The notes under the pieces are model-generated. The model did no database searches. It was not told the DNA's origin and worked only from the letters and a program-made list of their open reading frames with translations. Positions 14,660 through 15,125 of a stretch of 64,000 bases of DNA are shown here, one piece after another. Each line of letters starts with the position of its first letter. Position 1 is the stretch's first letter. The stretch covers positions 23,002,001 through 23,066,000 of the forward strand of contig OZ024762.1 of assembly GCA_964016885.1 (NCBI GenBank), written 5' to 3'. Position numbers and translations under genes: made by a program. The DNA comes from Eledone cirrhosa (taxonomy: Eukaryota).

Positions 14660-15125
14660 ACAGTGACACTGGACCGAGACCTTTGGCGGTGCTCAGTGGC
14701 AGAGAAGACCCGCCTTACCTAAATGTATGGTGGGACCTACTCCAGCCGGTGGGCGTCTCTGGCGGGGTGCACCCCGTCCCACCACCCCCACCCCCACCCG
14801 ATCCACACCGCCCCGTTCTATGTGGAGTTGTGTTGGTGCCGCGCCTTCGGGGCCGGAGCGGATGAGGTCGTGTGGGTGTCGCGACAGGGGGACACACGGT
14901 CCGCGCTGTAATGTGGCCGTGTGGGCAGCACGGTGGGGGCCTCCCAGACCCACACTGTGGGTGTGGTTGGTGTTGGGAGGGGCGTCCAGCTGTGGAGGGC
15001 CTGCCAGACGGTCCTGTGCGAGCGGGACGGTCACTCTTGCCTCAAGTGGGACTGCCCCCGTCCGGGCCCGTGCGGGCGTGGAGCACGGACGTTGAACGTT
15101 GATGATGATGATGATGATGATGATG
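14660..15125 (+). mobile_element. SINE/RTE-tail type repeat ending in (GAT)n, abnormally G-rich
   Basis: 3' end ..CACGGACGTTGAACGTT(GAT)n, and internal GTGGTTGGTGTTGGGAGGGGCGTCCAGCTGTGGA. Confidence 0.6.

What the first reader, a model, noticed from the sequence alone, without database searches (positions are those of the whole stretch)
14660..15125. G-rich, A-depleted repeat copy: possible retrotransposed ADAR-hyperedited RNA
My hand count for 14821-15090 (270 nt) is A 31, T 51, C 71, G 117, in a window that is otherwise extremely AT-rich. 28 of the 31 surviving As follow C or G (one TA, two AA), matching the established ADAR 5' neighbour preference U>A>C>G. From memory of a common octopus repeat (GTGGTTGGYGTTAGGAAGGGCATCCAGCTGTAGAAA..CCCATGCCAGCATGGA..CGGACGTTAAA(TGA)n), this copy reads GTTGGGAGGGGCGTCCAGCTGTGGAGG..CCCGTGCGGGCGTGGA..CGGACGTTGAA. 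The changes are A to G with Ts retained. Inference: A-to-I hyperediting was written back into the germline genome by retrotransposition, which is notable if the host is a coleoid with very high editing. The consensus is recalled, not looked up.
Basis: partly seen in the sequence, partly recalled or inferred. Interest (0 to 1): 0.75.

Follow-up and report, generated by a model that had tools for sequence, protein, structure and literature searches.

The report
ADAR-scarred LINE copy in genomic DNA
One short copy of a common repeat has G at about half of the places where its sister copies have A, on one strand only and in the pattern of the RNA-editing enzyme ADAR, so it is likely an edited retrotransposon RNA that was copied back into the inherited genome.

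Summary
Sequence data laid on 14660-15099 supplied the sister copies. The family has A where this copy has G at 46 places in run X1, against 3 places of the mirror change. The other three runs give 48:2, 37:1 and 44:4 (the last is genomic raw reads). A contig from X1 matches 182 bases of the G-rich copy with no difference, so the G-rich letters are in sequence data, not only in the assembly. Changed A's follow U or A (16/22, 27/36) far more often than C or G (10/35, 4/27); UAG 6/6, GAC 0/11. That is ADAR's pattern. The copy looks like a 5'-truncated LINE end (RTE-like): 20 last codons, 3' UTR, (TGA)n tail. The changes lie on the RNA strand. GC-biased conversion and a GC-rich subfamily are rejected. 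Inferred, not shown: ADAR as the enzyme, the dsRNA partner, that X1 is DNA, an octopod host. Two or three other X1 contigs also share G's. Known for retroviral proviruses; not found in 10 searches for LINE copies. This scan noted the same before in an L1 copy and an ERV LTR.

The parts
14660..14722 (+). Last 20 codons and TAA stop of a likely non-LTR reverse-transcriptase ORF (5' truncation point of the copy near 14660)
   Evidence: Frame translates to 20 aa plus stop. It scores 8.9 bits on a profile of 20 C-terminal tails of LINE-type proteins; 1 of 2,000 shuffles reached that, but E is only 0.84 in a six-frame search of the window. One tail belongs to P0260 (RVT_1, E 1e-41) and shares 7 of 8 residues around the DRxxWR motif. 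Family depth is present from the first bin, 14660-14674.
14723..15099 (+). 3' UTR of the element, shared with a high-copy family
   Evidence: 486, 642, 50 and 1,353 records of runs X1, X4, X5, X21 lie on 14660-15099 at 80% likeness or more.
14691..15075 (+). A-to-G hyper-changed tract: at least 57 places with G where the family has A; 63 A's kept
   Evidence: 37 places from table 3 (40 of 81 rows shown), 20 more read by eye from its loose-end and between-letters tables; tallied.
14810..14991 (+). Stretch matched with no difference by a contig of run X1 (204 nt, depth 4.67); holds 26 of the known changed places
   Evidence: table 8, record 5.
14771..14809 (+). C-rich stretch whose family state could not be read
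   Evidence: Skipped as a repeat; no known changed place falls in 14770-14849.
15068..15081 (+). Predicted small 3'-terminal hairpin in the family state; one A-U pair is G-U in this copy
   Evidence: Folding of an 18-nt piece, (prediction only; the copy's own minimum-energy fold differs).
15100..15125 (+). (TGA)n tail, 8.7 copies; marks the + strand as the element's RNA strand
   Evidence: RTE 3' UTRs ending in (TGA)n are described in PMC2887409.
14621..14659 (.). (TA)n-type microsatellite at the 5' junction
   Evidence: No target-site duplication can be told apart between the two microsatellite flanks.
15123..15550 (.). (TATG)n-type microsatellite at the 3' junction

Best explanation
This is one copy of a high-copy repeat, likely the truncated 3' end of an RTE-type LINE, that has G at about half of the family's A positions on its sense strand, most likely because its RNA was hyperedited by ADAR while double-stranded and was then reverse-transcribed into germline DNA. 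Shown: the family has A at these places; the change is one-stranded; it follows U/A and avoids G; the G-rich letters exist in sequence data. Inferred: (1) a transcript of the family paired with an inverted or antisense sister copy, because the element's own fold is no better than shuffles; (2) ADAR turned about half of the A's into inosine; (3) the LINE reverse transcriptase primed at the (TGA)n tail, read I as G, and stopped about 440 nt upstream, 20 codons into the ORF; (4) this happened in the germline or early embryo, because the copy is in the assembly and in several molecules of run X1. The copy has no proposed function; it is a fossil of one edited RNA molecule.
For: Spectrum: G>A places 46 of 56 in X1, 48 of 57 in X4, 37 of 43 in X5 (another organism), 44 of 62 in X21 (genomic raw reads); mirror change C>T 3, 2, 1, 4; binomial p 7e-11 to 2e-9 and 2e-12. 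Context on 57 changed versus 63 kept A's: 5' U 16/22, A 27/36, C 10/35, G 4/27 (Fisher U/A versus C/G p 2e-8; 37 table places only p 1.6e-6; outside A-runs p 4.7e-5); UAG 6/6, AAA 16/18, CAC 2/17, GAC 0/11. 3' neighbour A 25/36, U 8/14, G 12/27, C 12/43, in line with the invertebrate motif of upstream G depletion and downstream A (PMC5625713, passages). Only 10 of 57 changed places follow C, so CpG decay in the family cannot explain it. Exact 182-nt contig in X1. Anatomy matches truncated RTE copies (PMC2887409). In run X4, G at these places is commoner relative to family depth than in X1 at 29 of 31 places compared, often about 100-fold; this is what edited transcripts would give if X4 is RNA.
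Against: The library type of X1 and X4 is not on record; X1 as DNA and X4 as RNA are inferences from size and behaviour. X1 may be the sample the window was assembled from, so it is not an independent individual. No listed X1 piece covers 14992-15099 or the junctions exactly; at 15065 the only G-bearing depth is a different contig. X21, the one run on record as genomic, shows the family but not this copy (RAD-seq, 21 of 30 bins covered). No dsRNA partner was found in the window and the element's own fold is ordinary (z 0.10; family-like state z -0.25). 41 of 81 difference rows were hidden, so the list of changed places is incomplete and 20 places were read by eye. The ORF-tail match is weak. 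No editing was found in more than 2.5 kb of expressed human L1 RNA (PMC5224506, passages), so such events should be rare. Ten kept A's have a U/A 5' neighbour in the window, and 15 in the family-like state.
Confidence: 0.85

Rival explanations
1. An existing genomic copy was overwritten by cDNA of an edited transcript (gene conversion or RT-templated repair) instead of a new insertion. ADAR and reverse transcription are still needed.
For: No target-site duplication can be told apart between microsatellite flanks.
Against: Changes run from 14691 to 15075, almost the whole copy from truncation point to tail, as expected for a single insertion.
Confidence: 0.04
2. Technical origin: edited cDNA entered the data (RNA-polished assembly, or cDNA in the library), so the G's are not in the animal's DNA.
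For: X1's library is not on record and may be the assembly's own sample. X4 carries many G's at the same places.
Against: X1 has 1,381 million letters of contigs against 88 million for X4, and its family depth is at least 99.6% A at well-covered places, like the genomic run X21 and unlike X4. A rare edited molecule would not give one identical 182-nt contig at depth 4.67 matching the assembly. The sequencing artefact described in PMC2873906 is G-to-A (passages).
Confidence: 0.04
3. Adenines were deaminated in DNA, for instance on the sense DNA strand paired to antisense RNA, by ADAR or an unknown deaminase.
For: It would give the same strand and could give the same neighbour rule; that ADAR can act on DNA in RNA:DNA hybrids in vitro is recalled, not checked.
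Against: During target-primed reverse transcription the DNA strand is antisense, which would give sense T>C, the rare class here (3 of 56 places). Half of all A's escaping repair in chromosomal DNA is unlikely (inference).
Confidence: 0.04
4. Reverse-transcriptase misincorporation (C opposite A under low dTTP) in one retrotransposition event, with no editing enzyme.
For: It gives the same strand and one-event clustering; A-runs are heavily changed (AAA 16/18).
Against: The 5' rule holds outside A-runs (U 13/18 versus G 3/25, p 9e-5) and UAG is 6/6, which is ADAR's known preference.
Confidence: 0.02
5. GC-biased gene conversion or drift, or the ordinary consensus of a GC-rich subfamily.
For: The stretch is 70% GC. 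Two or three other X1 contigs share some G's.
Against: 46:3 strand asymmetry; G-bearing depth is at most 0.2% of peak family depth at all 31 places compared in X1; the contig that shares at least 13 G's still differs at 27 places in 290 nt.
Confidence: 0.01

Closest known systems
ADAR-type A-to-G clusters in integrated retroviral proviruses (BLV 3' LTR U3; HTLV-2 and STLV-3 as cited there; PMC8025556, passages)
   Same: Clustered A-to-G changes in DNA made by reverse transcription of an RNA, ascribed to ADAR1.
   Different: Those are somatic proviruses of exogenous viruses with 7 or more changes in about 70 nt. This is a non-LTR element, likely inherited, with at least 57 changes over 385 nt.
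ADAR hyper-edited RNA clusters in repeats (PMC4365171, PMC5625713, PMC9068888; passages)
   Same: Dense A-to-G clusters in a repeat, upstream G depleted; downstream A favoured as in the invertebrate group; octopus has an exceptionally high rate.
   Different: Those are RNA-versus-genome differences. Here the G's are in the genome sequence itself.
APOBEC DNA editing of LTR retrotransposons (PMC4866542, PMC2873906; passages)
   Same: One-event, one-strand deamination clusters fixed in genomic retroelement copies and found by comparison with the family.
   Different: G-to-A from cytidine deamination of cDNA, mostly LTR elements of vertebrates. PMC4866542 selected for G-to-A and against A-to-G.
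5'-truncated RTE-clade LINE copies (PMC2887409, passages)
   Same: End of the coding sequence, short 3' UTR, (TGA)n tail.
   Different: No target-site duplication can be seen here, the clade is not shown by phylogeny, and those copies are not described as edited in the passages seen.

Membership tests
ADAR hyper-editing footprint | Dense cluster dominated by A-to-G | tested here: met
   46 of 56 listed places in X1; 37 of 43 to 48 of 57 in X5 and X4; 44 of 62 in X21.
ADAR hyper-editing footprint | One strand, that of the RNA | tested here: met
   46:3 against the mirror change; strand set by the ORF end and (TGA)n tail.
ADAR hyper-editing footprint | G depleted 5' of changed A's; U and A favoured | tested here: met
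   U 16/22, A 27/36, C 10/35, G 4/27; UAG 6/6.
ADAR hyper-editing footprint | Long double-stranded RNA substrate | tested here: inconclusive
   Own fold ordinary; no partner in the window, but the partner belongs to the unknown source locus.
ADAR hyper-editing footprint | Dependence on ADAR; inosine in the RNA | not testable with these tools
   X4's excess of G at these places fits, but its library type is not on record.
Genomic (inherited) sequence | G-rich allele present in DNA reads | tested here: inconclusive
RTE-clade LINE, 5'-truncated copy | C-terminus of a non-LTR RT ORF, then 3' UTR and microsatellite tail | tested here: met
   the peptide match is weak (8.9 bits, 1 of 2,000 shuffles).
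RTE-clade LINE, 5'-truncated copy | RT domain groups with the RTE clade | not testable with these tools
   The copy lacks the RT domain and no full-length family member could be fetched. The RTE label rests on anatomy and recall.
RTE-clade LINE, 5'-truncated copy | Target-site duplication | tested here: inconclusive
   Both flanks are TA-rich microsatellites.
GC-rich subfamily | Many near-identical G-rich copies | tested here: not met
   3 of 486 X1 records are 99% or more alike; G depth at most 0.2% of peak family depth.
APOBEC DNA editing | G-to-A clusters on the sense strand | tested here: not met
   Window A against family G at 2 places in X1.

The most novel reading that the evidence does not exclude
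ADAR-hyperedited LINE RNAs are written back into the octopod germline repeatedly, so this genome holds a measurable population of edited retrocopies: a fossil record of germline A-to-I editing and a direct RNA-to-DNA mutation route, the A-to-G counterpart of APOBEC editing of LTR elements. The hint: two or three further X1 contigs share at least 13, 7 and 4 of this copy's G's while differing from it.
Probability: 0.5. Interest if true: 0.8.

Novelty: new variant of a known kind. Interest (0 to 1): 0.66.

Why it matters
RNA editing is usually taken to leave the genome unchanged. This copy is likely an edited RNA that became DNA. It implies that ADAR reaches LINE RNA in germ cells, and that an RNA with about half of its A's changed, up to the 3' end, can still be reverse-transcribed and inserted. 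It makes two open questions countable from genome sequence alone: whether ADAR restricts retrotransposons by editing (suggested but untested for cephalopods in PMC9068888; editing not found on human L1 in PMC5224506), and how much A-to-G change enters the genome of a heavily editing lineage by this route. A single dead 440-nt copy has no function of its own; the value lies in the genome-wide count it invites. Such copies can also be mistaken for RNA editing when reads from them are mapped to unedited sisters.

Tried and rejected
No whole genome is held, so no genome-wide scan was possible. No second family copy lies in the window, by BLAST or by A=G-tolerant alignment. A degenerate motif found 0 matches in viral, genome and metagenome contigs. 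Rfam gave only sub-threshold matches, almost all microRNA models on the microsatellites (38 rows). The 142-aa ORF at 14667-15095 has no Pfam match and is taken as a by-product of lost stop codons. The 20-aa peptide is under the minimum length of the homologue search; a search with another ORF tail found nothing. A homologue search with the ORF at 58896 gave no host clue. The transcript archive of PMC9115989 (supplement 3) gave only 84 characters of text, so the family could not be compared with published octopus transcripts; supplements 6 and 8 are too large to read, and the supplement of PMC13282606 was listed but not read. DOI 10.1038/ncomms1525 (APOBEC editing of retrotransposons, 2011) is not held and may discuss A-to-G clusters. 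Rejected: GC-biased conversion, GC-rich subfamily, CpG decay in the family (10 of 57 places follow C), APOBEC, deamination of first-strand cDNA (wrong strand), editing driven by the element's own fold. No other stretch of the window shows a comparable footprint; the next lowest (7141) is a GT-rich part of another element.

Full report
Observation. It is the most G-rich 270-nt stretch of the window, and has the fewest A's after A/T among 3,248 non-microsatellite 200-nt window-strands (2, mean 35).

Getting real sister copies. No genome is held, the window has no second copy, and motif scans of three contig collections found none. The run search listed 23 runs. I laid 4 of them on 14660-15099 at 80% likeness: X1 (best holder, organism A, library not on record), X4 (same study, other sample, library not on record), X5 (organism B, guessed DNA) and X21 (organism A, another sample, genomic RAD-seq raw reads). 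They gave 486, 642, 50 and 1,353 records. The stretch is a member of a high-copy family shared by at least two organisms.

Substitution spectrum. Places where the window has G and the reads have A: 46 of 56 listed in X1, 48 of 57 in X4, 37 of 43 in X5, 44 of 62 in X21. The mirror class (window C, reads T) is 3, 2, 1 and 4; binomial p is 7e-11 for X1. One of those C/T places (14700) is a family polymorphism where C is the majority in X1. At the shown G>A places with X1 depth above 100,000, at least 99.6% of depth has A. So A is the family state, G is derived in this copy, and the change is one-stranded.

Neighbour rule. The output showed 40 of 81 difference rows, 37 of them G>A. I read 20 more places by eye from the loose-end and between-letters tables. 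Against the 63 A's that remain, the share changed is 16/22 after U, 27/36 after A, 10/35 after C and 4/27 after G (Fisher p 2e-8; 1.6e-6 with the 37 table places alone). It holds outside A-runs (p 4.7e-5). UAG is 6/6, AAA 16/18, CAC 2/17, GAC 0/11. On the 3' side the shares are A 25/36, U 8/14, G 12/27, C 12/43. PMC5625713 (passages) reports upstream G depletion in all animals studied and downstream A enrichment in invertebrates, octopus among them. The list is incomplete, so the 3' figures are rough. About 57 of 120 A's are changed; roughly half is what ADAR does to long perfect duplexes (recalled, not checked).

Is it in the DNA? X1 record 5, a 204-nt contig at depth 4.67, matches 14810-14991 with no difference and no gap; that span holds 26 of the known changed places. 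X1's library is not on record. I infer DNA because it has 1,381 million letters of contigs against 88 million for X4, and because its family depth is almost purely A, like genomic X21. Limits: X1 may be the assembly's own sample, no listed piece covers 14992-15099 or the junctions exactly, and X21 shows the family but not this copy.

What the element is. The frame 14660-14722 gives 20 codons and a stop, then come about 377 nt of non-coding sequence and (TGA) x 8.7, between two microsatellites. A profile built from 20 C-terminal tails, taken from 150 relatives of another ORF remnant in the window (130 lacked a tail of the length required), scores the peptide 8.9 bits, reached by 1 of 2,000 shuffles; in a six-frame search of the window its E-value is only 0.84. 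One of those relatives has a full RT domain and shares 7 of 8 residues at the motif. PMC2887409 (passages) describes truncated RTE copies as the 3' end of the coding sequence, a short 3' UTR and often a (TGA)n tail. So this is likely a 5'-truncated RTE-type LINE whose RNA strand is the + strand. The clade label is not shown by phylogeny.

Mechanism. A-to-G on the RNA strand is what reverse transcription of inosine-containing RNA gives; deamination of first-strand cDNA would give the mirror class. The element's own fold is ordinary (z 0.10; family-like state z -0.25), so the duplex likely formed with an inverted or antisense sister copy at the unknown source locus. Changes span 14691-15075, nearly the whole copy, which fits one edited molecule inserted once. 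A small predicted 3' hairpin can still pair through G-U; whether that mattered for priming is untested.

Signs of more. In X4, G at these places is commoner relative to peak family depth than in X1 at 29 of 31 places compared, often about 100-fold; 65 X4 records are 99% or more alike against 3 in X1. This fits an RNA run with edited family transcripts, but the library is not on record, sister families may contribute, and depth sums are crude. In X1, record 4 differs from the copy at 27 places where at least 40 are expected of an unedited sister, record 7 at 8 of 15 and record 6 at 19 of 23, whereas record 2 (38 against 31) looks unedited. These may be independently edited copies. Their letters were not shown.

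Host. Names are coded. The best hit of the reverse transcriptase at 52240-53451 is an Argonauta protein at 64% identity, the only hit of 20 with a species name. That is a weak hint of an octopod.

What is known. ADAR-type A-to-G clusters are reported in BLV proviruses, with HTLV-2 and STLV-3 cited (PMC8025556, passages). Deamination clusters fixed in genomic retroelements are known for APOBEC, as G-to-A (PMC4866542 and PMC2873906, passages). No editing was found in expressed human L1 RNA (PMC5224506, passages). Repeat-directed editing is widespread in coleoid RNA (PMC9068888, passages). Ten searches (listings only, except for the papers named) showed no report of ADAR-hyperedited LINE copies in a genome. 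Two recent octopus repeat papers have no occurrence of 'editing' in their main text (PMC13282606; PMC12988792). The library lacks most subscription papers, including the 2011 APOBEC paper, and some supplements could not be read, so prior mention cannot be excluded. This scan noted the same kind of footprint in an L1 copy and an ERV LTR of other genomes; those notes are unchecked and are not counted as support.

Verdict. Real feature; ADAR-edited RNA retrotransposed into inherited DNA, confidence 0.85; a new variant of a known kind; interest 0.66, rising to about 0.8 if a genome-wide count shows a population of such copies.

Noticed in passing
run X1 records 4, 6, 7 laid on window 14810-15099: Three other contigs differ from this copy at fewer places than an unedited sister would (27 vs at least 40; 19 vs 23; 8 vs 15), so they share G's with it; possibly further independently edited copies.
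   Followed up: partly
run X4 laid on window 14935-15016: A large share of depth carries G where the family has A (for example 83% at 14979, against 1% in X1); fits edited transcripts if X4 is RNA.
   Followed up: partly
window 36705-38084: A 1.4-kb inverted repeat at 98% identity; if transcribed it would form a long duplex of the kind ADAR edits.
   Followed up: no
window 5974-7843 (-), 42376-44505 (-), 52240-53451 (+), 57642-59489 (+): Remnants of four other retroelement kinds: an endonuclease-bearing Tx1/L1-like element (Pfam Exo_endo_phos), a 709-aa Penelope-like ORF (no Pfam match), a CR1/jockey-like RT (RVT_1) and an R4/Dong-like ORF. Pfam results are; the clade labels are recalled.
   Followed up: partly
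window 19053-19805 (-), 21559-21866 (+), 36318-36506 (+), 63031-63114 (-): Other LINE ORF ends of the same general type; the first overlaps a 136-nt tandem repeat of 2.9 copies at 19232-19629.
   Followed up: partly
window 39386-41722 and 44560-46948: A direct duplication of about 2.4 kb flanks the Penelope-like ORF.
   Followed up: no
window 49508-52039 and 53623-56163; N run 52040-52239: Similar TA-rich blocks lie on both sides of the CR1-like remnant and next to the only assembly gap; possibly an assembly duplication.
   Followed up: no
window 15123-15550, 17508-18275, 33413-35900 and others: (TA)n arrays carry G on one strand only (GC skew 0.6-1.0). Slippage of a mutated unit explains this; an editing origin (A to G after U) is not excluded and was not tested.
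   Followed up: no
window 15546-16115: A different dispersed repeat next to the finding; parts recur near 28108-28656 and 48407-49020.
   Followed up: no
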